Of a stretch of 64,000 bases of DNA, positions 3,826 through 39,700 are shown one piece after another (the first letter of the stretch is position 1; each line of letters opens with the position of its first letter). The position numbers and the translations under genes are program-made. The notes under the pieces were generated by a model that was not told the DNA's origin, made no database searches, and saw nothing but the letters and a program-made list of their open reading frames with translations. The DNA is from Zootoca vivipara (Eukaryota): NCBI RefSeq assembly GCF_963506605.1, contig NC_083291.1, positions 36,332,001 through 36,396,000 on the forward strand, given 5' to 3'.

Positions 3826-3961
3826 CAGGCATCCCCAAACTTCAGCCCTCCAGATGTTTTGGACTACAATTCCCATCTTCCCCGACTACAGGTCCTGTTA
3901 GCTAAGGTTCATGGGAGTTGTAGGCCAAAATATCTGGAGGGCCGCAGTTTGGGGATGCCTG
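3826..3961. mobile_element. hAT MITE (about 136-bp family)
   Basis: TIRs CAGGCATCCCCAAAC/GTTTGGGGATGCCTG; TSD GTATAAAG. Confidence 0.92.
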
Positions 3962-8142: not shown

Positions 8143-8476
8143 CAGAAGTATGTAAGGTCCAAACTACACGGGGCATGCAAACATGCATAAATGGAACCCC
8201 CAAGAGCATTCCCAAAAGGAAAAGCCGCTTTGGGAGGGAATGATCCAGAGTAAAGAAGCAAGACCAAACAGACCTCACAGCTGCAGAGTTCTTCTTGTAG
8301 CAATGTCACATTAAGAGGAGTAAATGTAGGCAGAGGGGAAGGTGGGGGTGAGGGTGGGGTAAAGGAATAGGGGTTGGAATGTGTTCAGTCCTGAGGGGCG
8401 CTGGCAAAGTTTTGGATAAAGGTGACTTGTAGGTCAAGACAGAGAGATGCCAGTGGATCCTCTTCTTGCCTTCCAG

Positions 8477-8715
8477 ATGTGGAAGTTCCCCTCTACAAGA
8501 AGTTCCCCCATGTACCAGAACTGGCTGGGGTCTCTCCGGCTGCACCTTCCTCCCTTCACACAGCTGCCACCCCTACCAGGAGACGTCACCGAACTACCTT
8601 CAGCCAGGACCAGCTAGATCACCTGGAGGCAACTTTTGCAAAAAACCATTACCCTGATATTTACTGCCGAGAGGAGCTGGCCAGGGCTATCAAACTCAAT
8701 GAGGCTCGCATCCAG
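8477..8715 (+). CDS. PROP1: PROP1 exon 2 (homeodomain up to ...EARIQ)
   Basis: Acceptor cttcttgccttccag|; encodes RRRHRTTF...EARIQ; donor CAG|GTACC at the canonical paired-like homeobox intron position. Confidence 0.95.
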
Positions 8716-9710
8716 GTACCTGCTCAGTACTTAATGGCCCCAAGAACATATGGGCACTGCCATATTGGATGTGTTGAAAGCAGCCTGCAAGGGGCCTTTT
8801 GGAAACTGGGTCTCCAAGGCACTTACGTTCTGTGCCTTTCTACAACCATGGGACAAAGAAAGTGTGCTTTTTAAAGTCACATTTAGAACTACTTTTCCCC
8901 TTTGGTGTTTTTCATTCTAAGTTAACTGTTTTCCTAATAGTGAGGCAGTATTTTACTAACTGCATTAATGGGTGTATGAACTTGAAGCTCTGAGTTTATG
9001 TAAACTTAAACAGTTCTGTTACATGTATTTCTTTATAAAAAATATTTATAGACCACTAATTTATATTAAAAAATCAGAGTGCTTCACGACAGTTGTACAT
9101 AAAAATACATACAACAAAACCCACAGAAAATAGTTAAAATCAGAAACGAGGTAACTATTGTGGAAAGATGCATTCTTAATTGCCTGAAGGAATGGAAAAG
9201 TTTTCAGCAGGCATTTAAAAGTTGAAACAGAAGGCGCAGGGCCAGACCAATGTTACTGGTTACATGTTGTTGTAACATAGATTCTATACGAGAAACTGAG
9301 GCATCCCCCTCCCAATACCTACTACTTTTAATTTCAACAACAACCAAAAATATTAACCAGAGAACCAGCTGAGTGTGCAAAGTCCAGAAAGCTGCTAAGA
9401 ATCTGCTTGGGCCCACAATTCCAATCTGCCGATACCTATGTATAAATGTGCATCGTTCCCCTTTTGCCTATTGTTTTGAAAGTATAACGAGTCCATCCCA
9501 AACACACTGCACAAGCTTATCTCATAATTTCCTGCTTCTGGCAGATGTTTACCTTCTGCTGATGTTCCATAACGTTCTTGGTTTTCCAAAGGCTTGCACT
9601 GACAAGTTATGAATTTTCAGGAATAATTCTATTCTAAACATCATTGCCGAGATGCCTTGCCCATGGAATACGATTCACAATATGCATTCTCTCTCTCCTT
9701 GTGCTGACAG

Positions 9711-10064
9711 GTTTGGTTCCAGAACCGGCGAGCCAAGCAGCGAAAGCAGGAACGAGCGCTGCCCAAACCAGGCCCCCCTGGTATCCTCTGCCCCCTGCCT
9801 ACACCCCCACCTCGGCAGTACCAATACCCCCCCACTCTTGGGTCACATCATCACCTGCCTCGCTTTCCCTCCACCTACGCTCTGCCACCCCCACCTCCCC
9901 CTGCTACTTCTGCCCAGTTTTCCTGTCCTGCCCCCCACCACCCTCAACCCTCCCATGCTCACGAAGACTGGTACAGCCCTCTGCGCTCCATTGGCTCCCC
10001 CACAGCTGCTCCGCCACCTCCTGTGCTCTCTCTGAGTCTCGACCCCAGCACCCACTGGAACTAA
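9711..10064 (+). CDS. PROP1: PROP1 exon 3 (VWFQNRRAK..., Pro-rich tail, stop TAA)
   Basis: Acceptor ctctctccttgtgctgacag|; open frame to TAA 10062-10064, ending DPSTHWN*. Confidence 0.95.
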   Translation, partial: VWFQNRRAKQRKQERALPKPGPPGILCPLPTPPPRQYQYPPTLGSHHHLPRFPSTYALPPPPPPATSAQFSCPAPHHPQPSHAHEDWYSPLRSIGSPTAAPPPPVLSLSLDPSTHWN

Positions 10065-18008: not shown

Positions 18009-18111
18009 ATGTCTTCTGAAGAAGGAAAGCTGTTTGTTGGGGGGCTGAATTTTGACACTGATGAGCAAGGCCTGGAGCAGCATTTCAGCTCTTTTGGACC
18101 CATTTCTGAAG
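18009..18111 (+). CDS. RBM3: RBM3 exon 2, coding part (RNP2)
   Basis: Acceptor before 17987, ATG 18009, donor G|GTAAGC; 103 coding nt. Confidence 0.95.
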
Positions 18112-18199
18112 GTAAGCAAGTGTGGTGTTGGGGGTGGAGTTTTCCCCTGGGGTCAACATAAAATTGGATAACTTCAGCTATTTTGTTTTCTGTTCTTAG

Positions 18200-18306
18200 T
18201 TGTTGTGATCAAGGATAAAGAGACCCAGAGATCAAGGGGCTTTGGCTTTATCACCTTTGCCAATCCTGAGCACGCATCAGATGCCATGAGAGCCATGAAT
18301 GGAGAG
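18200..18306 (+). CDS. RBM3: RBM3 exon 3 (RNP1 RGFGFITF)
   Basis: ttcttag| acceptor, GAG|GTGAGT donor; 107 nt. Confidence 0.95.
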
Positions 18307-19281
18307 GTGAGTATTTCATTGTGGTGTGATCTGTTACCTGTTCTACTGTGTCTCGGCTGCTTTAATTATATGAGACTAAACAAAAAGGTTTCCCAGGAAA
18401 CGTACTGCTTTGATTTTAGTTTTTGTGAAATGCCTTTAATTAAACTATTTTAGAAAATGGCCTTTTCTTGCTTGCAAGTGTCAACCCAATAGTAGGGAGC
18501 TCTTGCAGTGTATGCACGTTACCTAAATGCACATGTGGTGATAATGCTTCTGATTTAGTGTCAAGGTGAGCGGCTATTTATGTCATAAACTGGTGAGAGA
18601 CAGCTATATTGGTAACAGGCACAGATGCTGCTGGACTTTTGCTTCTTTCAACATTTGACTATTGGCCATACTGTAATGCCTGAGATCTGGCTCTTCTTGG
18701 GGAGCTGGATCCTGCATTCTTCCAGATGTATTGAAAGCTCATTGAGTGGCATTGCTAGTTCACGTTTCCACTACCCTTTTTTACTTTCAGACAAGAACAA
18801 TAATAAGAATTATACCCCACCCCTCTGGCTGAGTTTCCGCAGCCACTCTGAGACAAGCTACTCTCAGATTATTTACCACTCACCTTTACAGTGTTTCCTC
18901 CCAACAGGAATCAGCAGCAGGACTGCTTTCTGTGATTCCAGAGGTTTTTCAGAATACTGACTATCTTTGGGAAATTATTTTTAAGTGGTTCAATTTGCTG
19001 TGTGAAGTGCAAGTTCCAGAATAGCTGCTTTTGCTTGTAGATCTTGTGTAATGCAGGGGGCAGGTACCCAAACTTACACAGGTGGGGAACTTCAGAACTC
19101 AATTTGGAAATAAATCTTCTGAACTCTACAGTATCTTAATAAGAGCAATAGTAATTGGTGAAAAGTCATGTTTTATTAACAATTGGTTATGTGCATATGA
19201 AAATTCATGTAAATAGTTGCTTTGTTTGATCAGCTAATTAGTTAAGCAATGGTCATAATTAAAGTACTTGTTCATTATCAG

Positions 19282-19387
19282 TCTGTAGATGGGCGCCAGA
19301 TAAGAGTTGATCATGCAGGGAAGTCTTCCCGTGGATCTAGAGGTGGCTACTTTGGAGGCAGGGGGCGAGGCCGTGGTTATTCCAGAG
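19282..19387 (+). CDS. RBM3: RBM3 exon 4 ([19 protein letters not shown] region)
   Basis: atcag| acceptor, G|GTGAGT donor; 106 nt. Confidence 0.95.
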
Positions 19388-19496
19388 GTGAGTATAAGGA
19401 GATTGAAACAAACACTTGCATGCATTGGGGTAATGAGGTGGGTGGGTTGCTGGTGGCTTAGCTGTCACTGAAATGGTTTTCTTTTCCTCCTCGGAG

Positions 19497-19572
19497 GTGG
19501 TGGAGACAGAAGCTATGGTGGGCGATACGACAACAGAAGTGGAGGCTACAGCGGTTCCCGGGACTACGGCAG
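19497..19572 (+). CDS. RBM3: RBM3 exon 5 ([24 protein letters not shown])
   Basis: Polypyrimidine tract followed by an unusual GAG| acceptor; AG|GTAATT donor; frame consistent. Confidence 0.88.
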
Positions 19573-19649
19573 GTAATTGTACTGATGTGTTCTCCTTTAA
19601 TGTTCAGTTTTAGGTGAGCAGATATAAAACACAAATGCTTTGTTTTCAG

Positions 19650-19716
19650 AAGTCAGGGAGGTTATAACGATCGCTACTCTTCAGGAGGCTCTTACAGAGA
19701 CAACTATGACAACTGA
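19650..19716 (+). CDS. RBM3: RBM3 exon 6, coding part (..SYRDNYDN*)
   Basis: ttttcag| acceptor; TGA 19714-19716, then G|GTAAGT donor. Confidence 0.93.
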
Positions 19717-20866
19717 GGTAAGTGGATTTTGGGAAGGGAGTGAAAATGCTGTCTTGCCAAAACGCTTGTGAACTTTCAGTGTTCCGACTTTACACTGAGT
19801 AACAGCAGTAACTACAGCTCCCTACTGAGTTGTCAGTATCAAAGATGTTTCTTTTCTTTTTTGTTTATCTGCCATTTGCTCAAATCTAAAACATTGCAGC
19901 CCTCAGTTCACATTACTGGTAAATAACTTTAAGTGCATGTTGGACCTTAAAGAACTCTTAAATTCAAATTGCAAAGTTGTCAGTGCTAACTGGGGGAGGG
20001 CCTGAGATTCCTAGCATCACTAATCTAAAAAAGTCTAGGAGTGGTGAATTGCTGCAACATGTCCGTATGCTTGTGCCTTTATGATTGTACCTGCTTCTTG
20101 TCCTCAGCTCACACCGAGTAAAAATCCTTCCTGAATCAAGATCGTCCTTCCAATGGCCGTATTTATAAAGATTTTTGGAGCTTCGCTGAATCTTGTTTAG
20201 TTACCTACTTGTATCTTCCCCCATATAGCTTTTGTCACATGCAGCCCGAAAGCTTCCTCTACAAGATGGCCTGTTTAGACTTTGCTCAAGAGTTGGTTTT
20301 TTCAAGAGTGGTTTTTAAGCATTTTTGAAATCGGTTTTATTTGTCTTGCTTTCTCAATCCAAGGTTTCTTTTAACGTGACACATGGGGCCCTACAACTTT
20401 AAACAGCTGGAAGCTGAGCAAACCTTTTTTGAAATAGTGCAGTGCAAGAGTTCAACTCCTAGCATAGTAAGGGAGGGCAACAAATGCAAACCACCTTGGT
20501 ATTAGTAAAAGAATTAAATGATTCACGCTGGTTTAGTAAAAAGCTATTTTACTGTACAAAGTAAATCCAGAAATCAAAACTGAACGCTTTGAGAGGTTCT
20601 TGAAAATGTTTGTTTATATTGTCCTTTTTTTACTGGAAGAAACGTGCATAATTCAATTGACATTGTATTTGAAGTGGATAAGGAAGTTCCTGTACTGAGT
20701 TTTTGGCTTTACGAAGCCCATTAAAATCCCATCTGAAACAATTCTCTGCTCTTGACGTTTGACATCACATTGCACCGCACAACTTTGATAGCGACAAGGA
20801 AGCAGAAGCACGTTGGGCCTCACCTAGGTAAATCCCAGGGTTGGTACCCAAGTAATAAATTTGATA

Positions 20867-21116
20867 CAGTGGTGCCTCGCTAGACGAATTTAATTCGTTC
20901 CATGGGTCTTTTCTCATAACAAAAATTTCGTCTAGCGAATCCCATAGGAATGCATTGAATTAATTGAATTTCAATGCATTCCTGTGGGAAACCGCGATTT
21001 GCTAGACGAATTTTTCTTAAAACGAATTCGTCTAGCGAGGCAACCTCCACTAGAAAAAACTTTTCATTAAGCAGAAATTTCATTAAGCAGGGCATTTGTT
21101 AAGCGAGGCACCACTG
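20867..21116. mobile_element. Tc1/mariner (Tigger-like) MITE
   Basis: Same TIRs, TA TSD. Confidence 0.9.
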
Positions 21117-23224
21117 TATACACTAATACTTAAGCGGTTGGTGTGAAATGGTGGAAACAGGAAATCTTCAACATGGGGAAGTGGAAACATGTCTGTTCCT
21201 TAAACTGGCTATAGGATATTTTAGCATGACTTTAAGCTATAACTGTAGCATCTTGTTAGTCATGTTGTATCTGAATAATTTTGTATCTAAATGTTAATAT
21301 ATTACCCTTCTCTGCATCAACCAACACATGATTCCCTAGAATGTTTATAGCTGTGCCAGTGCTATCCTGGGGCAATGAATCTGGGTAGTGGCTGGTGGCG
21401 GTGAAATACCTGTGGAGTCTTGTGTTTCAAACAAGGATCCCAGTGGAGTTCAATACAGTGTTAACTGCAAATCTTGGGCTTTCTTTCTTAGTCTTCAAAC
21501 AGTGAATTATTTAGCTGAGCCTTTATTAGTGAAGGCAAATCATTATTTTTGGTTTGGGAGTCACTACAGAGGGACCAAAATATGGGATGCCAAGCCAAAA
21601 CACGTGTGATGCAAAACCCTGTGCCCTATGCTTAAACCTTCATTTAAGTTCAGTGTTAAAACCTAGAATGGGTTGGTTCTCCTTGCTACAATAGTAGTAC
21701 ACAGTATTGCTGTTGCTGGAGAGGAAGACTTTGGAAGGACCTGCCTCCTTATACAAATGCTAAAGTAGGATAATGTGTCCTACTACAATTGGAAAATTTC
21801 AGCTGTCAGATGAGCTGGTGGAGAGGGAAGTTTTTGGAACTGGGGGGCCTTGAGGCTTTGTTCAGGGTTAAGGCTGAACTGATATTGGGCCTAGATGGGC
21901 CTACCTGTAGTTAGCTCTGTCCTGTTCTTACACTGTGAGAATTCTCTGCTAGCGTGTGGAAGCCAGTGTCCTTGGAGACCCCGAAGTGTGTTGTGCCTCC
22001 TTCAGTGCGATCCATGTGAGACGAAAGCTGCTCTTGGCTAGTTCATTTGTGGAAATAGTCCTGTATTTCGAGGTAACTTTTTTGCTCATGTCTGCATCTT
22101 CCCTCCCACAGAGCTCCATTCTTGTGGCTACAGCAAATCACTGATTCTTATTTCTTTGACAAACGAACTGGGCAAGTTTGGGGTCTTCTCAGACCCCCCA
22201 AGAACTTGGACTGAATCTGCTCCTTTTTTTTTATCTGGGGTGGGAGGGCCTATCTGGCTGTTGCGACTTGAGATTTGCTTTCAAAAACTTAAAGGGAAGG
22301 TAGTTGGCCAAACAGTACTTGGGTTCATCCAGCTGCATTTGCTGTTTTGTCCAATATCTTGTAATTGTGCCTTGTGCTGACCTTGGACTGTTAATTGGGA
22401 AGACTTCCGATTGCAACATTGTTTGGGTGTGGGAGGCTTCTATTTCCACTTAAAACTTTTCCAATTTTTAGTGCATATGGTGGCTTTTGGACAGGAATCT
22501 AAAAGTGGGAGAAAAATCTGAACTTAATAACTTGGGGAATCTCCCAAGGGCTAGGTGAACAGCATCACCTAGGCTTGGAATATCCTGTTAGACATGTATA
22601 ATCTGAACACAATGAGAATTTGAATGAACTTGTGTTAAGTGACACTGCCTTGTTTTTGACAGGTTAGAAGAGATGATGGTGGCTATTCTATCCTGAAAAA
22701 GTGTTGGCCACACTATCTTGAAAGAAGTGATGGAATGGAACAGGGACTACTACTCTTTGGATCCTGAACTTCAGCTACGAAATAAACTTTCTCCCGCATA
22801 AAAGTAAACACATATTCTTAAAAGAAAACTCCTTTGCTTTCGTATTCAGTAGTTTAAGCATGGCTATGTGTTCCTGTGCCATTAAATTGCGGCTATGGTA
22901 CAAATTGATTTTGGCTATGCAAAAGTAAATAGATCAAACTTCCATTGGAGATGATCAGAAGCATGTTACTAGTGAATTGGTACTTCACTAAGCAGTATAG
23001 TGTTCTGCTTGTGCAAGAAGTGATGGCAGTGAATAGCTATGGTCACTTGTTCCTTGTAGCACTTGATGAAAGTAACGTGGCCCATACCTTGTATATGATA
23101 AACTTGTGACCAACTTGCTCATTTGGATGCCACAGAAGTTACCATTTAAATTTTCTAACTTTAATAAGCAATTGCCAGTAGTTTTTTTCTTCAAAACCAG
23201 AAACTTCATGCCTCAATGCTCACA

Positions 23225-29605: not shown

Positions 29606-29708
29606 ATGGCATCAGATGAAGGAAAACTCTTCATTGGAGGGCTCAGTTTTGACACCAATGAGCAGAATCTGGAGCAGTTGTTCTCCCCCTATGGAGACAT
29701 TGCAGAAG
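29606..29708 (+). CDS. CIRBP-like paralog exon 2, coding part
   Basis: cttccctacag| acceptor before 29594, ATG 29606, G|GTGAGG donor; 103 nt. Confidence 0.93.
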
Positions 29709-30510
29709 GTGAGGAAGGGTGTCGCACCTGATTTTATTCTGTCATTACAGAAGTTCTGAATCTGTTAATGTTTCTGCACCAGGAAACCAATTGGTAGGGA
29801 TTTGGAGTTTGCAAGTGCATACACTCAAACAATGATAGCAACTATACTACCGGTATGATAAGTTAAAAGACTTGTCACATCTGGCATTCAAGGCATGACA
29901 ACTCTTTGGATGAGGCAGAAAATCACCATTCATTCTTGTGGCAAGCAAGAGCCACCATCCCTGATAGAGAGCCCTCAATGACCACATTTGGCCTCACCCC
30001 TGTGTTAATGTCAGCAACCTTGAACGATTTACTAGCAATTCCTGTGCTGTATCACTTCAGATCACAGCTGGAGTTTGCCTGCTTATTCATGTAAAATCCT
30101 TTTTTCTGAACATTCAAAATCAGTGTGTGACGAAGACTGTCCAACTATGTTCATATTGAACAAATGGGGTTTTGTTAACATGAGAGAGCACTTGATACAT
30201 ATCTGCATTCTGAAGTGATACTCCTGGCAATATAAAGTTAATGATGTGCATCTTGCTTTCTCCAAATTGTGTTGTCATTAATACTATGGCTTGCTCATTT
30301 GATTTGTTTCAATATTAATCTAATTAAACTGAAATAGCAAAGCTTGCCATTCAGTCCCATGGCTTGCTTTAGTCATTACCAAACACATCCAGCCTTTCCC
30401 CCAATCCTCTCTAAAACAGTTCTGTAAATACAATAGTTTCCTAGCCCTGTTTAATTTCCTCATCCCTTCCTCTCAACTCTATTTACACTCTTGTGATGTG
30501 AGAAAACCAT

Positions 30511-30737
30511 GAATCATAGAATCCTAGAGTTGGAAGAGAACACAAGGGCCATCCAGTCCAACCCCCTGCGCCAAGCAAGAAACACCATCAAAGCATTCCT
30601 GACAGATGGCTGTCAAGCCTCCGCTTAAAGTCCTCCAAAGAAGGAGACTCCACCACACTCCTTGGAAGCAAATTCCACTGTTGAATAGCTCTTACTGTCG
30701 GGAAGTTCTTCCTAATGTCAGGAAGTTCTTCCTAATG
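30511..30737 (-). mobile_element. CR1 LINE 3' fragment
   Basis: GAATCATAGAATC tail repeat, CR1 3' hairpin region and RT C-terminal remnant. Confidence 0.8.
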
Positions 30738-30803
30738 AAGTCAGCCTGCTTCCTTCCCCTACCCCACAGGTTATGAAAGCATCCTTTACTATATGTTTTA
30801 GCA

Positions 30804-30940
30804 CAGGCTTCCTCAACCTCAGCCCTCCAGATGTTTTTGAGACTACAATTCCCATCATCCCTGACCACTGGTCCTGCTAGCTAGGGATCATGGGAGTTGT
30901 AGGCCAAAAACGTCTGGAAGGCCAAGGTTGAGGAAGCCTG
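30804..30940. mobile_element. hAT MITE (about 136-bp family)
   Basis: TIRs CAGGCTTCCTCAACC/GGTTGAGGAAGCCTG; TSD TTTTAGCA. Confidence 0.92.
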
Positions 30941-31485
30941 TTTTAGCACAATGTTTCAATATAGCCTTAATTTTATAAAACCTTGATCCAAAGTGGTCTT
31001 GATTATTTATAGCTGGCAAAGTGGGATGAGGGGCATGTATAGGTTATATTTGAAGAATGCCAATGATACATGGCTGGATCTTCCTAATTTTCAAAGTGAT
31101 AAATTGTATTGAAAAAATACAAAGGTATCAAGATGTCTAGTTGGGAAGGATTGTGCGTCGATATTACAGACCTCTTGATGTATAGATTTGAGCTTTCCTG
31201 GAAGCAAGCCCTTGTAATTGAGAGATTGGTTAATAAATTACATGAGCTCATTAATAACAGCATCTTATTTCCCCAGTAAGATAGACAGCAGGGTTTTTCT
31301 TATTCTTCAGCATCCAATTCTTGAAGCTTATTTCCCAGATGCCCCCGTGTGGCTATAATGTCCTTCCAAGCAGTCTTTGAGTCTGAAGTGGGGCTAAAGA
31401 CGGAACCTGGCAAGGGACACTGGCTGTCAACTACATGCAGAAAAAGAGCCAGGAAAATAATCTGTTAAAATTTTTCTCTCTCCAG

Positions 31486-31592
31486 TGGTTGTGGTGAAAG
31501 ACAGGGAGACGCAGCGGTCCAGGGGTTTTGGTTTTATTACCTATTGCCGTCCTGAAGATGCCAAGGATGCCATGAGGGCTATGAATGGAGAG
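31486..31592 (+). CDS. CIRBP-like paralog exon 3 (RNP1)
   Basis: ctctctccag| acceptor, GAG|GTAAGT donor; 107 nt. Confidence 0.93.
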
Positions 31593-31643
31593 GTAAGTGT
31601 CGCCCGCATAGATTGTTCACCATTTCTTATTCATTCTCTATTG

Positions 31644-31779
31644 CAGGCATCCCCAAACTTCGGCCCTCCAGATGTTTTGGACTGCAGTTCCCATCATCCC
31701 TGACCGCTGGTCCTGTTAGCTAGGGATCATGGGAGTTGTAGGCCAAAACATCTGGAGGGCCGCAGTTTGGGGATGCCTG
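31644..31779. mobile_element. hAT MITE (about 136-bp family)
   Basis: TIRs as at 3826; TSD CTCTATTG. Confidence 0.92.
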
Positions 31780-32383
31780 CTCTATTGCATCCACTTTCTT
31801 TGCAACTTCCTAGAATATGGAAGGCTATTAGATGTGATCTGTCATGATTGTATTGCAAAATGTTGTAACTACCTACTCTTACTTTGGTGGGTGTGCAGCA
31901 CAGTGAGCAGCAATAATTTTTAGTCCTGAATTACAGCTCCAGGATTGCTTAATTCACCTTTTGTTACAGCAACTTCATGATGCTCTTCTAAACTCGGGTG
32001 GGGAACCTGTGGCTTGTCAGCCCAGAATCCACATTTGGCCCATGATGCCATTTCACTCCCAAGTTACACTCAACTGATGTCATAAGTGATGTCAGTTGTG
32101 TGGAAAAGTCAGGTCTGTTTGGTTGGGGTGCACCAACCAATGAGATACACAAAACTGGTTGTCCTGAATTCAGCTTTAAAAAAAAATTCAATAATAAAAT
32201 TTATTTAAATATTTAATTTAATTAAATATATATTCTGTGGGTATTCCATAGCATTCAGCAGAACAGGGATTTGTTCTGCTTCCCAGTGGCAGAGGATGCA
32301 AATCATTCAAAACAAAATTTTAATCCAAGCTTTGATTATATTGGACTCCTGCCTCCTTGTTAGCAGGTTGGAAGAGTAGCATA

Positions 32384-32709
32384 AAAAGGTAAAGGGACCC
32401 CTGACCATTAGGTCCAGTCATGACCGAGTTGGGGGTTGCGGCGCTCATCTTGCCGGCGTACAGCTTCCATGTGGCCAGCATGACAAAGCCGCTTCTGGCA
32501 AACCAGACAAACTGAAACACTGTTTACCTTCCCGCTGTAGCGGTACCTATTTATCTACTTGCACTTTGACGGGCTTTCGAACTGCTAGGTTGGCAGGAGC
32601 TGGGACCAAACAACGGGAGCTCACCCTGTTGCGGGGATTCAAACCGCCGACCTTCGGATTGGCAAGCCCTAGGCTCTGTGGCTTAACTCACAGCACCACC
32701 CGCGTCCCT
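32384..32709 (-). mobile_element. Sauria SINE
   Basis: tRNA-derived head and ACCTTT tail; 16-bp TSD TTGGAAGAGTAGCATA. Confidence 0.93.
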
Positions 32710-32776
32710 TTGGAAGAGTAGCATACATCTTGGTTAAAAGCTCTGGCTCTGATTTGTTCTCTTGCTTCTCCCCAAG

Positions 32777-32870
32777 TCTGTGGATGGGCGTCAGATCAGA
32801 GTGGACCAGGCTGGAAAATCCTCCCGTGGCTCTTCTGGAGGCAGAGGGCGTGGACGTGGATTCTCCAGAG
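32777..32870 (+). CDS. CIRBP-like paralog exon 4
   Basis: cttctccccaag| acceptor, G|GTGAGT donor; [16 protein letters not shown]. Confidence 0.92.
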
Positions 32871-32954
32871 GTGAGTGGCTTGTGCCCTTCAGTGCTAACT
32901 GCTTAGTGGTGTGGGAGCAAATAGGCTTGATAAACATTCATATCTTTGCTGCAG

Positions 32955-33033
32955 GCGGTGGAGGATATGGAGGTGGCCGTTATGATAACAGAAGCGGTGG
33001 CTATGGTGGATCTAGAGACTATTATGGCAGCAG
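32955..33033 (+). CDS. CIRBP-like paralog exon 5
   Basis: gctgcag| acceptor, AG|GTAAGA donor; [25 protein letters not shown]. Confidence 0.9.
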
Positions 33034-33714
33034 GTAAGACCAACACACGCACCTAAGAGATACTTGGTTGCAGCAGATTGTGGTACCTACAAATATGATG
33101 TTGAGATCATGATCCTTTGTGTTCTGTATTAGAATAACAGTTTGAGAGTTCCTTCTGAACCATTAAACTTTTCCTTAGAGGTAGCAAAAGAGAGCTGTTG
33201 AAGTGCTCCTGATTATTTTAGCATTTGGAAATAGGCTTAGCCCGCTGTATGCTGCTATGGCATGGAAGCTGCAGGTATTGCATGCTGTTTTAGTAACAAC
33301 AGGCTATCATGTAGAAAGGAAGATTCGTCCTGCCATGCCTCAGTTTTTACTCAGTTTTTATAACCTCCTTACTAAATTGGTCCTCTCTTAATGACCAATT
33401 TATATACAGCACTTAAATAAGAATGAGGTTTATAAATGAGCATTTCCGTAAAGGTTCTTTTTGTAATTTTGTCATAATATTGATATTTTAATATGCCTAC
33501 CTGTACAATGGGACAGCAGCCCCAAAATAAGTTCTGGGTGGTTCTTCAGGTCCCCAGAGCAGATTTTTTTTCATGGGCGGGAGGAGGCAAAGAAGAATCC
33601 CCACTGCATGAGTGGATGGATGCCTGCTCATACTACACTGAATCTCACTCAATGTATAGCATCTAGCAGCAGCTCAGCAGTGACATATCAGTCTTCTGTT
33701 CTTTTTCCCTCAAG

Positions 33715-33778
33715 GAATCAAGGAGGCTATGGAGACCGTTACTCTGGGAGCTCCTACAGAGACAACTACGATAACTAG
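33715..33778 (+). CDS. CIRBP-like paralog exon 6 (..SYRDNYDN*)
   Basis: ttccctcaag| acceptor; TAG 33776-33778 directly followed by the GTAAGT donor. Confidence 0.9.
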
Positions 33779-35331
33779 GTAAGTGTATGTCTAAGCACCA
33801 TCTGCTTCTTATATCAGGATAGCTACTAAAGCATAGGACTTAGTTCTCTCACGTCACAGACTAACTTTGTCAGCAAAACTCCTTTCCTCATCAGCAAGTC
33901 TAGCATAATTGCGTATGCAGAATTGGCCTGTTGCTGGAGTAAAGCAAAAAATAAAAATGGGACAGTTAAACCCATCCACACACTTTGTTTTTAAGGGACA
34001 CTGTTGAGCCAGCCTATAAAAACCATGACTACAGCCTTTTACACACGGAAACTTTCTCCGAACCGTAAGTTTATGGGAATTAAACCTCTACATTCCTAAT
34101 ACGGTCTTGCTTTTGTTGAAAAACAAAAAAGGTGTATGCGAATACTCTTTATTGGCAGATAATTTCCCCCCTGCATCATCTCCAAGGCTGCGAACAGTTG
34201 CCCTGGGCTGGGAGGAGGGAATCTAGGTTAGCATCAAGCACCAATGTTCTTCAGTGTACTTTATGATCTGTACCTGCTTCTTGTCCTCAGCTTGCACCGA
34301 GCATAAATCCTTCCTGAATCAAGATCGTCCTTCCAATGGCCGTATTTATAAAGATTTTTGGAGCTTCGCTGAATCTTGTTTAGTTCTCTACCTGTATCTT
34401 CCCTTTTTGTAGTCTTACCACAAGCAGCCCAACAGCTTCTGCTACAGGATGGCCTGTTAGAGCTTTCTGAAGGAAAACATTTTAATTTGCCTTTTTTTTT
34501 TACAGGTGTGTTTAAGCATTTTTGAATACATACTTTTATTGCTTTCCCCCACCTCCACCCCCTGGATTTCTTTTAACACACCAAGATGGGGGTTCTGACC
34601 TATTCTTCACCTAAAATTCCCCAGAGTCTGAGCAAGGTGTGAGGATCCTCCTTGTTTTTATAAATGCATTAATACCTTGTAGTTTTGTAAAAGTCCTATG
34701 GTGTAGCAAGCAAGGGGTATGGTGGAAGGCAAAACCCCCTTGATTATAAAGGGAGACGTGTGTTTGATCTTCAGAAATCAGAATTTATACTGTATGATGT
34801 ACCTAGAACCGAAGCTTGCAGAACTTGCAAGTTGTTCTTGAAAAACCGTTTGTTTATATTTTTTTTTAAACTGGAAGACACACATGTAACTCGATATTGT
34901 ACTAAAAGTGGTTAAGGAATTCCTGTATTCAGTTCTTTGGCTTCACGAAGCCTATTAAATGCCCTTCTGAAAATGAAATTTGTTCTTGACGTTTTAACAC
35001 TTCAACTATGCCCAATTTAAAGCCATAATACATGGCACATATTTTAAACTGCTGTGTATTTGTTAAACGGATACCTTGGAGAGGAGATGCCAAGGAATTT
35101 CAGTACTTAGTTCAGTGGGCTAAAGCCTACAAGCATTTGTATTTGGGTGCTTTGTATATTGTCAGTTTGAAAGATTGTGCCTTGTGTTTGGGATTCTTTC
35201 TATATTGGCTTGTGTGCCACAGAACCTCTGCCGTTGAGGTATTCTGGGGTAAGCATGTAAGATACCAGCCTGGCCTGTGGAGCCTGAACTGGATGTATCC
35301 ATGAATATAGGCTATCATCCCTTGGGTGGTA

Positions 35332-36777: not shown

Positions 36778-39700
36778 ATATACACCCTTCATAAACACGT
36801 ATGCCAGTATGATTTTCAGTACAATTTAACATCTTAGCGACAATGAAAATACACAATAAGACATTAAAAATCAAGAGTAATTAAATGACAGTGGAAAAAA
36901 TAAAATTGGCAGTAGTTTCAAAATATGGACTGTTTTAGTAGGCAAGCTCCACCAATGGTATTTTGGCATCTTAATGAGTGGGAGACAGCTTTCTGACCAC
37001 AGTAAACTGGTTTCTTTGCTTTGTTTAGATGGGGCAGAAAGCAAACTCCACAAAGCGAAAAGTCTTGAGTGGGGTGGTTGGTTGATTGGTTGTGTTTCAA
37101 AGAAAGTATTTTTGAATCTGAAATTATAGTACTGTAAAACCATTCCCATAAAATAAAACCTGGGGTGTGGGTGGGTGTGACAGACACCTTGTAGGTATTT
37201 TGATGGGAATGGTAAGCACACATTGCCATGACTTTAAAATCTTAGGAAATCACTCTGGACTTGTTTGATGATACTGTAGATGAAAACTAATGGGTGTCTG
37301 CCACTTTACCTGCATCTGATGAAACCAGATTTAAATACATCTTGTTTTAGTCGTAGTGAGAGGAGCTAATGGTACAAGAGTCGAGAACATTCTATAAATT
37401 GCTGCATCAAGTGTAGGATTGTTGATAATGCTTATAGATTATCAAACTTGTGCAATCCTCGTGTAGCCAGGTTGTTTCAGTGGCCCATTGGCTTAGTTAG
37501 GCAATGGTTTCTTGTGGTTGCTTTTAAAACCATGGTGATCCCAACCTTTTGCTCCGATCCCGTTTTGTGAGTAGAGGATAAAAATACCCTGTCTTCAAGA
37601 AGGAAGATGGAATGCCTGTAAAATATTTAATGTGGATTAAACCCAAGACACCGGAATTCAGAAGGCAAGGATCCATTGACAAGATAGTCATGGTATTGAG
37701 CCAGAATTGTAACATGGCTTTATTTGGCAGGTGGAAGGGGCACCCCTGGATCCGGAAGTGAGTTTACCTCAAGGCTGGAGTTGAGAAAAGACTTTCCCTT
37801 TGGGTACCTCTCTGGAGCTCCTGTCTTGTGCGTATATTAATGTGGTCATTCTAAAATATGAGGGGCAAACCTTCCAATAAAATGAAGTTAGGCTGTGGGG
37901 GGGTGGGATGAGTACTAATAAAGTAATGCAAGTACACTTGCACACAGACACATCAACAGTGGCATCTGCACCATCTTAAAAGTGCTCCCCCCCCATCAAA
38001 ACTAGTCAAATTTTTACTCAGTTTTTATTAAAACTTAACTCCATGAGGAGTAAAAACCAGTGTTTTCCCCTTGTCCCCACATCGGCATCTTCCATCCAGT
38101 GAGAGAGCATTCTCTGTAAATTGCTGCTTGAGTTGGTCCATGAGTGTTCATTGAGAATGCCTAGAATGTCTTGTGACTCGTGCAGTTTTTGTGTGTTGAG
38201 GTTATTTTGGTGGCCCCTCCAGTCTTGGGCACTGGCTTCTTGTGGGTGCAGCCTACTTAAGAGCAGGACAGTTTACCCATCTCTGCTCCTTGTGTATAAA
38301 GTTTCCTCTCCCTACTGCTTTTCATTGTGCAGCCAAAATAGTGCAACTTCTGTCAAATCTTTTAGAGCCTCCTTCATTTTGGCTCGTAAGCTGGAAGCAG
38401 GAACGCTGCTACTGCTTGATAGCATTACTCTCCCATTCCTCTCGCCAACGGCCAGGATGGGAAGCTCATTTTCCTTCCGAGCCCAAGAGCTGAACACACT
38501 TCTTAGCTGTAGTTTGTTAGAAAGCTGCAGAACCTGATCCACGTACACATGAAAGGCCTGGGTGACGCCAGAAAATGAATGGGGCATAGTTACCTCATCC
38601 CCATCCTGTTCTAGAGCTTTGGGTCTCTGGCTAAGAGTAGGCTGTAACAAGATTTGTCTCCTCTCTTGTCCTAAGTGGCCACCACTCCATTTAAAATTCA
38701 ACCCACTGACCTCAGGACCTTAAACTGCTGGGGTTTTCATGAGAGCACCCTCAGTTCTTGTTGAGTTTAGTTTTGAATTTCTTGTTGGTGTTTCTAGCCC
38801 TCCCCTAAGTGTGTGGGGGGTGTAGTGTTGCTGAGAGCACCCTTTAATTCTCTACTGTGGGAGCTTGCTTTTGGCCCTCACGAAGTGATTTTGTGGCCTA
38901 GCACTTTTGCTTGATTTATGGTGTTTTCTTGTACTTTAGTGTATATTTTGTGTTTAAAGAGTACACCACTTCAAGGCTCCTCTAGGATGAAAAGCAGTAT
39001 ATAAATATACGATAACAATGGGATCAGGACAGGCATGGAGAGGAACTTAATCCTTTCCTCCCCTTCTGTGGTCCGGGGGGGGGGGATTCCTCTTCTGAAG
39101 AGGAAGTCTCATCTGTTGGTGCTGAGGAAATCCTTCCCCCACCCCAAATGCAAATCGCATCTTTGGAGAAGGGATTTTCCTCAGGATGAGTAGAAATGAA
39201 TGAGAAAAGGGGTTACATTCCCTCTCTGATCCCACCAGCTGATTCAATATCCATTTTTGTAAAAAAAGATGCTGGTTAAATGCTAAGGTGCATTTGTCCT
39301 GAGACTAGGTTGTGAATTTTTAAAATCTTCACGCTTAGAAGGCTTCCAAAAGCTGTAAAGCGTCGATAAATAAATTATTTTCCTTTCTTTTCTTTTAAAA
39401 AGGCACATGCCCTGTTGCAGACCAGCTTAGATTTTCCTGTTGGAAGTCAGTTATGTGGTGCACACATTTAATTGAAGTGGAGCACACAATGCAGTTGCAA
39501 TTGGAATTTCAGCTCAGGGATGGGGAGATAAGGAAGGCTCCTTACTCTTCGGAGGAACAGAATCCTGCTGGATGTCTCTTTGTAGCTTTGGTATCCCTCT
39601 GCATTGCACAGTGGCACTTGAGAACTCTCCGCTGACAGGCTAACTCAGAAACTGATGCTGTTCCTACACCTTCAACCACTGATGGTGCCCCACCTCAAAG

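What the first reader, a model, noticed from the sequence alone, without database searches (positions are those of the whole stretch)
20086..20202. Identical 81-nt 3'UTR block and 24-nt acceptor shared by two otherwise diverged paralogs
Seen: 20122-20202 equals 34305-34385 (81 of 81 nt), and 20086-20109 equals 34269-34292 (TGTACCTGCTTCTTGTCCTCAG|CT). This non-coding block is better conserved than the coding exons. It can pair CAAGAT/ATCTTG and TCCAA/TTGGA into an interrupted hairpin. From memory, GATCGTCCTTCCAATGGC also occurs at the start of the human CIRBP and RBM3 last exons. Inference: a deeply conserved cis-element controlling last-exon choice or mRNA stability, possibly an RNA thermometer. 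Gene conversion is the alternative.
Basis: partly seen in the sequence, partly recalled or inferred. Interest (0 to 1): 0.75.

Follow-up and report, generated by a model that had tools for sequence, protein, structure and literature searches.

The report
Ultraconserved last-exon switch of cold-shock genes
Three long-separated cold-shock RNA-binding genes (RBM3, a tandem RBM3-like gene and CIRBP) share a nearly unchanged ~115-base stretch around their last splice acceptor, which likely sets how efficiently the productive last exon is spliced rather than acting as a melting RNA thermometer.

Summary
Gene A is RBM3. Gene B is a third family member also found in turtles, gecko, viper and echidna. 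The block also lies in this genome's unlinked CIRBP (74/81) and in a bird CIRBP (76/81). Two other organisms, 5-13% diverged in coding exons, give one 81-nt contig with 0 differences at exactly 20122-20202. Recent gene conversion is therefore not needed. The intronic acceptor is 19-20/20 identical across four genes; the other four acceptors are 3-11/20. This junction corresponds to the mammalian CIRBP exon 6-to-7a junction, whose competition with NMD exon 7b is temperature/CLK-controlled (PMC11346455, PMC7726792). Gene A keeps a 7b-like distal acceptor; B shows none. The hairpin folds no better than shuffles (z -0.16), has one non-significant compensatory pair, and is not predicted to melt on warming. 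Verdict: a real, ancient cis-element, most likely splice-regulatory, with an AU-rich core that may add decay control. Function untested.

The parts
18009..19717 (+). Gene A = RBM3, coding exons 18009-18111, 18200-18306, 19282-19387, 19497-19572, 19650-19717; the stop ends 1 nt before the last intron
   Evidence: Exon model; top homologs named RBM3; RBM3 clade 100/98; joints in RNA contigs
20078..20082 (+). Candidate branch-point motif (yUnAy type) about 27 nt before the acceptor; same register in B (34260-34264) and both CIRBPs
   Evidence: Alignment A6, motif scan; role inferred
20086..20107 (+). Invariant polypyrimidine tract and AG of the last (7a-type) acceptor of gene A; no U-run longer than 2
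   Evidence: 22/22 to B, 21/22 to both CIRBPs; other acceptors 3-11/20
20108..20121 (+). Exon-start spacer, remnant of the stretch that encodes the last residues and stop of CIRBP; non-coding and variable in A/B
   Evidence: 10/14 A vs B, 13/14 A vs CIRBP; CIRBP model
20122..20202 (+). 81-nt ultraconserved block of the RBM3 last exon (3'UTR)
   Evidence: 81/81 to B, 74/81 to own CIRBP, 76/81 to bird CIRBP; 81-nt zero-difference contigs in runs X6 and X7
20137..20195 (+). Possible weak hairpin: outer arms 20137-20142/20190-20195, inner arms 20148-20153/20175-20180, 21-nt loop
   Evidence: MFE -12.7 kcal/mol, z -0.16; alifold consensus; one compensatory pair, not significant
20160..20166 (+). 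AU-rich-element heptamer UAUUUAU, the only one in each of the three 3'UTRs scanned (A, B, own CIRBP); in the hairpin loop
   Evidence: also in bird CIRBP; ARE reading of the motif is recalled knowledge
20596..20760 (+). Second conserved 3'UTR block with proximal poly(A) signal ATTAAA at 20720; cleavage near 20741
   Evidence: retrocopy poly(A); poly(A) loose end at 20741 in X1
21908..22105 (+). CIRBP-type conserved block downstream of the proximal poly(A) site, kept by gene A
   Evidence: 80% over 205 nt to bird CIRBP, 77% to own CIRBP; alignment; covered by contigs in 4 of 4 runs
22653..22786 (+). Candidate distal (exon 7b-like) acceptor of gene A, exon start 22663, AATAAA at 22781
   Evidence: Shares the acceptor core with the own-CIRBP 7b candidate at L006:9311; 11/20 upstream identity; no exon 6-to-distal joint among those displayed; use not shown
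29606..33778 (+). Gene B = tandem third family member (RBM3-like/CIRBP-like), coding exons 29606-29708, 31486-31592, 32777-32870, 32955-33033, 33715-33778
   Evidence: clade with Chelydra, Caretta, Mauremys, Gekko, Vipera, Tachyglossus, support 86/79
34269..34385 (+). Gene B copy of the acceptor (34269-34290; exon start 34291) and of the 81-nt block (34305-34385)
   Evidence: B-type joint letters in X7; B retrocopy on C19

Best explanation
The block and its acceptor are one ancient element shared by RBM3, its tandem paralog and CIRBP, and it likely works on the pre-mRNA as a regulated 3' splice site plus exonic enhancer/silencer platform that sets how much transcript is spliced to the productive last exon. 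Shown: its position across the last intron-exon junction, use of the junction, near-identity across three paralog lineages and several species, and no such conservation at the other acceptors. From papers: in mammalian CIRBP this junction (exon 6 to 7a) competes with an NMD-linked exon 7b and with intron 6 retention, under temperature-sensitive CLK/SR-protein control. Inferred: sequence-specific splicing factors read the invariant branch point, short-U-run pyrimidine tract and the first ~95 exon bases together, so cold favours this acceptor, and a shared factor explains why paralogs cannot drift apart. After splicing, the AU-rich heptamer probably adds a constitutive decay signal. The temperature input would come from the proteins, not from melting of the RNA.
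For: Intronic part invariant: 19-20/20 across 4 genes versus 3-11/20 at the four other acceptors; an mRNA-only role cannot explain this. Conservation starts at the branch-point/acceptor and fades after +95. Same element in unlinked CIRBP and bird CIRBP. Retrocopies collect 3/81 and 5/61 changes in the block, so it is not a mutation cold spot. Gene A retains the CIRBP post-poly(A) block and a 7b-like acceptor. Contigs spanning the last intron are seen in X1, X6, X7 and X21 (A-type) and contigs carrying the B-type acceptor end in X6 and X24, beside spliced ones (RNA status is a guess). Papers (passages): 7a/7b choice is the temperature/CLK-regulated step, 10% vs ~70% to 7b at 34 vs 38 C (PMC7726792; PMC11346455; bioRxiv 2023.01.18.524578). 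Cold raises Cirbp common-UTR and lowers extended-UTR counts (PMC3690385 Table S8).
Against: Gene B keeps the element perfectly but has no detectable 7b-side block (nhmmer over the window: best other hit E 0.08), so 7a/7b competition cannot be the whole reason. No exon 6-to-distal joint was displayed for gene A (6 joints not shown). In mouse, Cirbp intron 6 did not make a heterologous reporter temperature-sensitive and the mapped element was intron 1 (PMC5066242). Mammalian RBM3 cold induction is reported to depend solely on poison exon 3a (PMC11346455), although the block appears to persist there. The published conserved region is the 7b side, not this block. No binding factor was identified and nothing was tested experimentally.
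Confidence: 0.55

Rival explanations
1. The 81-nt part is mainly an mRNA stability or translation element: an AU-rich heptamer, perhaps displayed in a weak hairpin loop, bound by decay factors or by family members; the acceptor is conserved for a separate reason.
For: Single UAUUUAU per UTR in A, B and own CIRBP, inside the block. Mouse Cirbp mRNA is short-lived with a predicted ARE; half-life 270 vs 90 min at 33 vs 38 C in one experiment (PMC5066242). Rbm3 mRNA rises log2 1.88 on Cirbp knock-down (PMC3690385 Table S6).
Against: Does not explain the intronic invariance. The Cirbp cDNA reporter had diminished temperature response, and qPCR half-lives were about 2 h at both temperatures. In the PAR-CLIP table no Cirbp or Rbm3 cluster starts in the first ~250 nt of the mouse Cirbp common UTR; the one Rbm3 cluster found lies at the poly(A) end (gene-name column of that table does not match its coordinates, so only coordinates were used).
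Confidence: 0.22
2. The block is a structured RNA thermometer: a hairpin, or a switch between the hairpin and pairing of the exon with the pyrimidine tract, that opens or hides the acceptor with temperature.
For: The 5-nt indel falls between arms. In gene A an acceptor-hiding pairing falls from 0.85 at 15 C to 0.44 at 42 C in one window.
Against: z-scores -0.32 to +1.08 in 9 of 9 folds. Covariation reached by 65 of 500 shuffles; 2 pairs broken. Outer stem 0.00-0.02 and acceptor-hiding pairing 0.00-0.10 in both CIRBPs; both depend on window size in A/B; the acceptor would be hidden in the cold, opposite to the known direction. Only 4 sequences, so power is low.
Confidence: 0.1
3. Identity of A and B comes from gene conversion between tandem copies, without function.
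For: A and B are 14 kb apart and are more alike (81/81) than A is to mammalian RBM3, which shows small insertions at protein level. An old conversion followed by selection is not excluded.
Against: Zero differences to other organisms in both paralogs, with the same boundaries, while exons differ 5-13%. B-specific spacer differences between acceptor and block persist across species. 66/68 core identity to bird CIRBP, which is neither tandem nor in this genome. Retrocopies decay.
Confidence: 0.04
4. It is a DNA-level enhancer or overlaps an antisense or non-coding gene.
For: Ultraconserved sequences are often enhancers (general knowledge). Not excluded by any search.
Against: Conservation edges follow splice anatomy in three paralogs at two loci. 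No Rfam family at E up to 1 in the block. Indels of 3 and 5 nt between the genes argue against a conserved reading frame.
Confidence: 0.06

Closest known systems
Mammalian CIRBP exon 7a/7b alternative 3' end switch (CLK/SR, AS-NMD)
   Same: Same junction: donor at the end of exon 6, proximal acceptor about 0.4-0.5 kb downstream, conserved block after the proximal poly(A) site, distal acceptor. The own-genome CIRBP has a 7b candidate giving a protein 4 residues shorter, as reported for human CIRBP-210.
   Different: Published conservation and deletions concern the 7b side. Here the 7a acceptor and first 95 exon bases are the most conserved part and are shared with RBM3 and a third paralog. In A and B the stop lies in exon 6, and B has no detectable 7b side.
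Ultraconserved splicing-regulatory elements of RNA-binding-protein genes (SR-protein and TRA2B poison exons)
   Same: Near-perfect non-coding identity spanning intron and exon in an RBP gene, at a regulated splice choice (PMC7726792 passage).
   Different: This marks the productive terminal exon, not a PTC cassette; 81 nt plus 22 nt is shorter than the classic 200-nt definition (recalled); NMD link not shown for A or B.
RBM3 poison exon 3a and its rG4 thermometer
   Same: Same gene, splicing-level temperature control (PMC10165353 passages; PMC12446472 search listing).
   Different: Different place (intron 3), G-rich; the block has no G-run longer than 2. No contig covered intron 3 of gene A at 80% likeness, which proves nothing.
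AU-rich elements (UAUUUAU core)
   Same: One heptamer in the 3'UTR, conserved in 4 of 4 genes aligned.
   Different: Single copy within a long invariant context; binding and decay untested.

Membership tests
CIRBP 7a/7b-type temperature-controlled alternative last exon | Proximal last-exon acceptor after exon 6, used in mRNA | tested here: met
   Retrocopy junction; joints in runs
CIRBP 7a/7b-type temperature-controlled alternative last exon | Conserved region after the proximal poly(A) site and a distal acceptor (gene A) | tested here: met
   21908-22105 at 77-80% to CIRBPs; acceptor at 22663
CIRBP 7a/7b-type temperature-controlled alternative last exon | Same distal region in gene B | tested here: not met
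   nhmmer --max over the window: only gene A hit, next E 0.08
CIRBP 7a/7b-type temperature-controlled alternative last exon | Exon 6 spliced to the distal acceptor | tested here: inconclusive
   No such joint displayed; 6 joints not shown; distal exon diverged between species
CIRBP 7a/7b-type temperature-controlled alternative last exon | Temperature/CLK dependence and NMD of the alternative form | not testable with these tools
   Only contigs, no raw reads or temperature series
RNA thermometer (structured cis-element) | Conserved structure supported by covariation | tested here: inconclusive
   1 compensatory pair, 65/500 shuffles reach the score, 4 sequences
RNA thermometer (structured cis-element) | Predicted melting of one shared fold over 15-42 C | tested here: not met
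   Hairpin probability rises with temperature in A/B and the outer stem is absent in CIRBPs
Rfam cis-regulatory families | Covariance-model match | tested here: not met
   0 of 9 matches at E up to 1 overlap either copy
AU-rich element | UAUUUAU core in the 3'UTR | tested here: met
   20160-20166
AU-rich element | Destabilises the mRNA through ARE-binding proteins | not testable with these tools
   Needs reporter or CLIP data
Gene-conversion tract | Paralogs closer within species than orthologs between species | tested here: not met
   Block identical between species and paralogs alike; bird CIRBP 76/81 vs own CIRBP 74/81

The most novel reading that the evidence does not exclude
The CIRBP-type 3' end switch is the ancestral cold-response module of the whole family. 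Reptile RBM3 still runs a 7a/7b choice, a little-noticed third amniote paralog keeps the same control element, and the invariant acceptor-plus-exon block (with an ARE in a weak, compensated hairpin) is the cis sensor on the productive side, read identically in all three genes and targetable with one oligonucleotide.
Probability: 0.2. Interest if true: 0.75.

Novelty: new variant of a known kind. Interest (0 to 1): 0.5.

Why it matters
Cold induction of CIRBP and RBM3 is described as using separate mechanisms (7a/7b versus exon 3a). A shared, nearly invariant element on the productive last exon points to a common ancestral control and names a precise ~115-nt target for minigene and antisense tests. 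This bears on neuroprotective RBM3 induction and on reptile temperature biology, where CIRBP is implicated in sex determination (PMC13077969 passage). The third paralog also means reptile 'CIRBP/RBM3' expression data can mix three genes that share an identical read-mapping stretch.

Tried and rejected
Collection scans for vertebrate copies: viral contigs 0, GTDB genomes 0, metagenomes 53 loci of which 1 was a true homolog (L020) and 52 chance matches of the short pattern. Protein searches with translations of the block: none in one frame, 4 chance repeat proteins, 1 unnamed CIRBP-type read-through in another frame (P0123). Four further hits were matches to the RGG tail and were dropped. Rfam: nothing in the block. 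Coding role for the block: rejected (indels of 3 and 5 nt). An acceptor-hiding pairing of the exon with the pyrimidine tract looked attractive in gene A but failed in both CIRBPs and changed with window size. Autoregulation by direct binding at the block: no supporting cluster in the mouse Cirbp table; one Cirbp cluster lies in the Rbm3 3'UTR but its place relative to the block was not determined. Synteny: 108 window ORFs against Pfam gave only an upstream homeodomain; the downstream ORF gave no Atlas hit. No contig cover of intron 3 of gene A: not evidence. Earlier scan notes: nothing. The CIRBP model ended exon 6 one base late (corrected); this affects only the last codons of its dS values.

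Full report
Observation. The two stretches are identical as stated: 81 of 81 and 24 of 24. They flank a 14-nt exon-start spacer with 4 differences, and identity falls to 66/88 just downstream and 36/56 just upstream. The coding sequences of the two genes are 74.5% identical with saturated synonymous sites (pS 0.72, dS about 1.9-2.4). Chance identity of 81 bases at coding-level divergence is about 4e-11.

The genes. Gene A (CDS 18009-19716) is RBM3: its retrocopy-derived protein finds squamate, turtle, crocodilian, bird and mammal RBM3 first. Gene B (29606-33778) is a separate lineage. A tree of the first 88 residues of 38 proteins (the three genes plus 35 of the 120 listed homologs, chosen by hand; two apparent A/B chimeric annotations, P0010 and P0011, left out; bootstrap not fully settled) gives three amniote groups: RBM3 (100/98), a B group with turtles, gecko, viper and echidna (86/79), and CIRBP (96/93). 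The A/B duplication therefore probably predates the mammal-reptile split. The genome holds 5 matches to the block (5 of 5 candidates scored): A, B, true CIRBP on contig C6, an intronless retrocopy of A and a transposon-broken retrocopy of B. In CIRBP the first exon bases encode the last residues and stop; in A and B the stop has moved into exon 6.

The junction is real. The A retrocopy joins exon 6 to 20108 and ends in poly(A) near 20741. A GT..AG joint at this place is seen in 3 of 4 runs (the fourth is DNA) and 4 of 4. All laid runs were contigs and their RNA status is the tool's guess.

Selection versus conversion. 22 of 24 listed runs hold the stretch or part of it; 15 hold all 8 sampled words, from 8 coded organisms and one metagenome (5 flagged as possible sources). 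In 2 of the 4 runs laid (X6, X7) the listed pieces include a contig of exactly 81 nt at 20122-20202 with 0 differences and a depth near the sum of A-type and B-type contigs. Those organisms differ from the window at 5 of 109 and 14 of 111 (X6) and 8-11% (X7) of coding-exon bases. The simplest reading is that both paralogs carry the same block with the same edges in those species. X1's list was cut and X8 gave one 290-nt piece with 17 differences whose places were not all listed. X24 shows A-type 0 differences over 20106-20151 and B-type 3 over 20085-20135. A bird CIRBP recovered from a metagenome (L020; best protein matches 143-144/145 to bird CIRBPs) is 76/81 identical to gene A (66/68 in the core), closer than this genome's own CIRBP (74/81). 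The retrocopies changed at 3/81 and 5/61 block positions, like their other parts. Two of 121 proteins scanned, mammalian RBM3 read-through isoforms, carry a translation of the block with small insertions. Conversion alone is rejected. An ancient conversion followed by selection remains possible because lizard A equals lizard B while mammalian RBM3 has drifted.

Splicing anatomy. The 20 bases before the last AG are 19-20/20 identical among A, B, own CIRBP and bird CIRBP; the four upstream acceptors score 3-11/20. A branch-point-like motif lies in the same register. Intronic invariance needs a pre-mRNA (or DNA) function. Papers place the regulated step here: human CIRBP exon 6 is joined to 7a, to NMD-linked 7b, or retained (bioRxiv 10.1101/2023.01.18.524578, passages); 7b use goes from 10% to almost 70% between 34 and 38 C under CLK control (PMC7726792, passages; PMC11346455, passages; PMC11570493, passages); intron retention shifts in hibernators (PMC7590145, passages). 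Gene A keeps the CIRBP block downstream of the poly(A) site (21908-22105; 77-80%) and a distal acceptor at 22663 resembling the own-CIRBP 7b candidate; contigs of 4 of 4 runs cover this region. No exon 6-to-distal joint was displayed, and gene B has no such region. Against the model: mouse intron 6 did not confer temperature sensitivity on a reporter and intron 1 did (PMC5066242, passages and Discussion), and mammalian RBM3 induction is attributed solely to exon 3a (PMC10165353, passages).

Structure. Alifold on 4 genes returns it (covariation term -0.12). Of 15 pairs, 11 never vary, 1 changes on one side, 1 is compensated and 2 are broken; 65 of 500 shuffles reach the score. Partition-function folds at 15-42 C give outer-stem probability 0.00-0.02 in both CIRBPs and rising values with temperature in A/B; an alternative acceptor-hiding pairing appears only in A/B and depends on the window. 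A shared melting thermometer is not supported, though four sequences cannot exclude a weak conserved hairpin.

Stability. The block holds the only UAUUUAU heptamer of each of three UTRs scanned. Mouse Cirbp mRNA is short-lived, with conflicting temperature effects on half-life. In PMC3690385 (passages and supplementary tables) Rbm3 mRNA rises on Cirbp knock-down and cold favours the Cirbp common UTR, but no CLIP cluster starts in the first ~250 nt of that UTR.

What is in print. Ten full-text searches listed no title or abstract opening that describes this shared block or the third paralog; most listed papers were seen only as listings. PMC5021741 (passages), PMC13077969 (passages), PMC3176834 (no occurrence), PMC11310781 (supplement, no occurrence) and bioRxiv 2025.06.17.659751 (passages) added nothing on it. 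Haltenhof 2020 and a recalled EvoFold-family paper were not held, and bioRxiv supplements were closed; genome-wide structure or ultraconserved-element lists may already contain the human sites. Rfam has no match.

Verdict. A real ultraconserved cis-element at the productive last-exon acceptor of the CIRBP/RBM3 family. It works like the splicing-regulatory ultraconserved elements of RNA-binding-protein genes and sits at a known temperature-regulated junction. Its sharing with RBM3 and a third amniote paralog, and the 7b-like region behind reptile RBM3, appear undescribed within the searches above. Mechanism inferred, not tested.

Noticed in passing
window 29606-33778: Gene B is a third CIRBP/RBM3 family member; its protein is identical to the viper homolog over its length and has an echidna relative. 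Databases name it either RBM3 or CIRBP-like, and tuatara and box-turtle entries (P0010, P0011) look like A/B chimeras, which suggests the same tandem layout there.
   Followed up: partly
window 21908-22105 and 22663-22786: Reptile RBM3 keeps a CIRBP-like post-poly(A) conserved block (with a donor-like site at 22073) and a 7b-like distal acceptor. In X21 a contig stops about 24 nt past that acceptor, a weak hint of a spliced form entering there.
   Followed up: partly
L006:9311-9399 (G000 C6): Candidate exon 7b of this genome's CIRBP with clean splice sites and an early stop, giving a 4-residue-shorter protein as in human CIRBP-210; equivalent at position 3846 of the L020 reverse strand.
   Followed up: partly
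L009:3665-4815 (-), L011:1710-3401, L010:4176-4389 (-): Three retrocopies: a nearly intact RBM3 retrocopy with an open 151-codon frame (dS 0.07 to gene A), a transposon-riddled copy of gene B, and a 5' fragment of gene A.
   Followed up: partly
window 19718-20107: The last intron of gene A is alignable between species (about 85-90% in laid contigs) and appears in RNA-guess contigs beside the spliced form, suggesting retention isoforms.
   Followed up: partly
window 19497 and 19650-19653: Exon 5 of gene A uses an unusual GAG acceptor; exon 6 has a tandem NAGNAG acceptor, and the retrocopy used the downstream AG.
   Followed up: no
window 8395-10064: Homeodomain gene upstream of RBM3, split by an intron; not identified.
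   Followed up: no
window 38315-38719 (-): Open frame that looks like an exon of a downstream minus-strand gene; no Pfam or Atlas hit.
   Followed up: partly
window 20862-21119: Palindromic transposon-like insertion just after the gene A poly(A) site; contigs of other organisms have shorter, different sequence across this interval.
   Followed up: no
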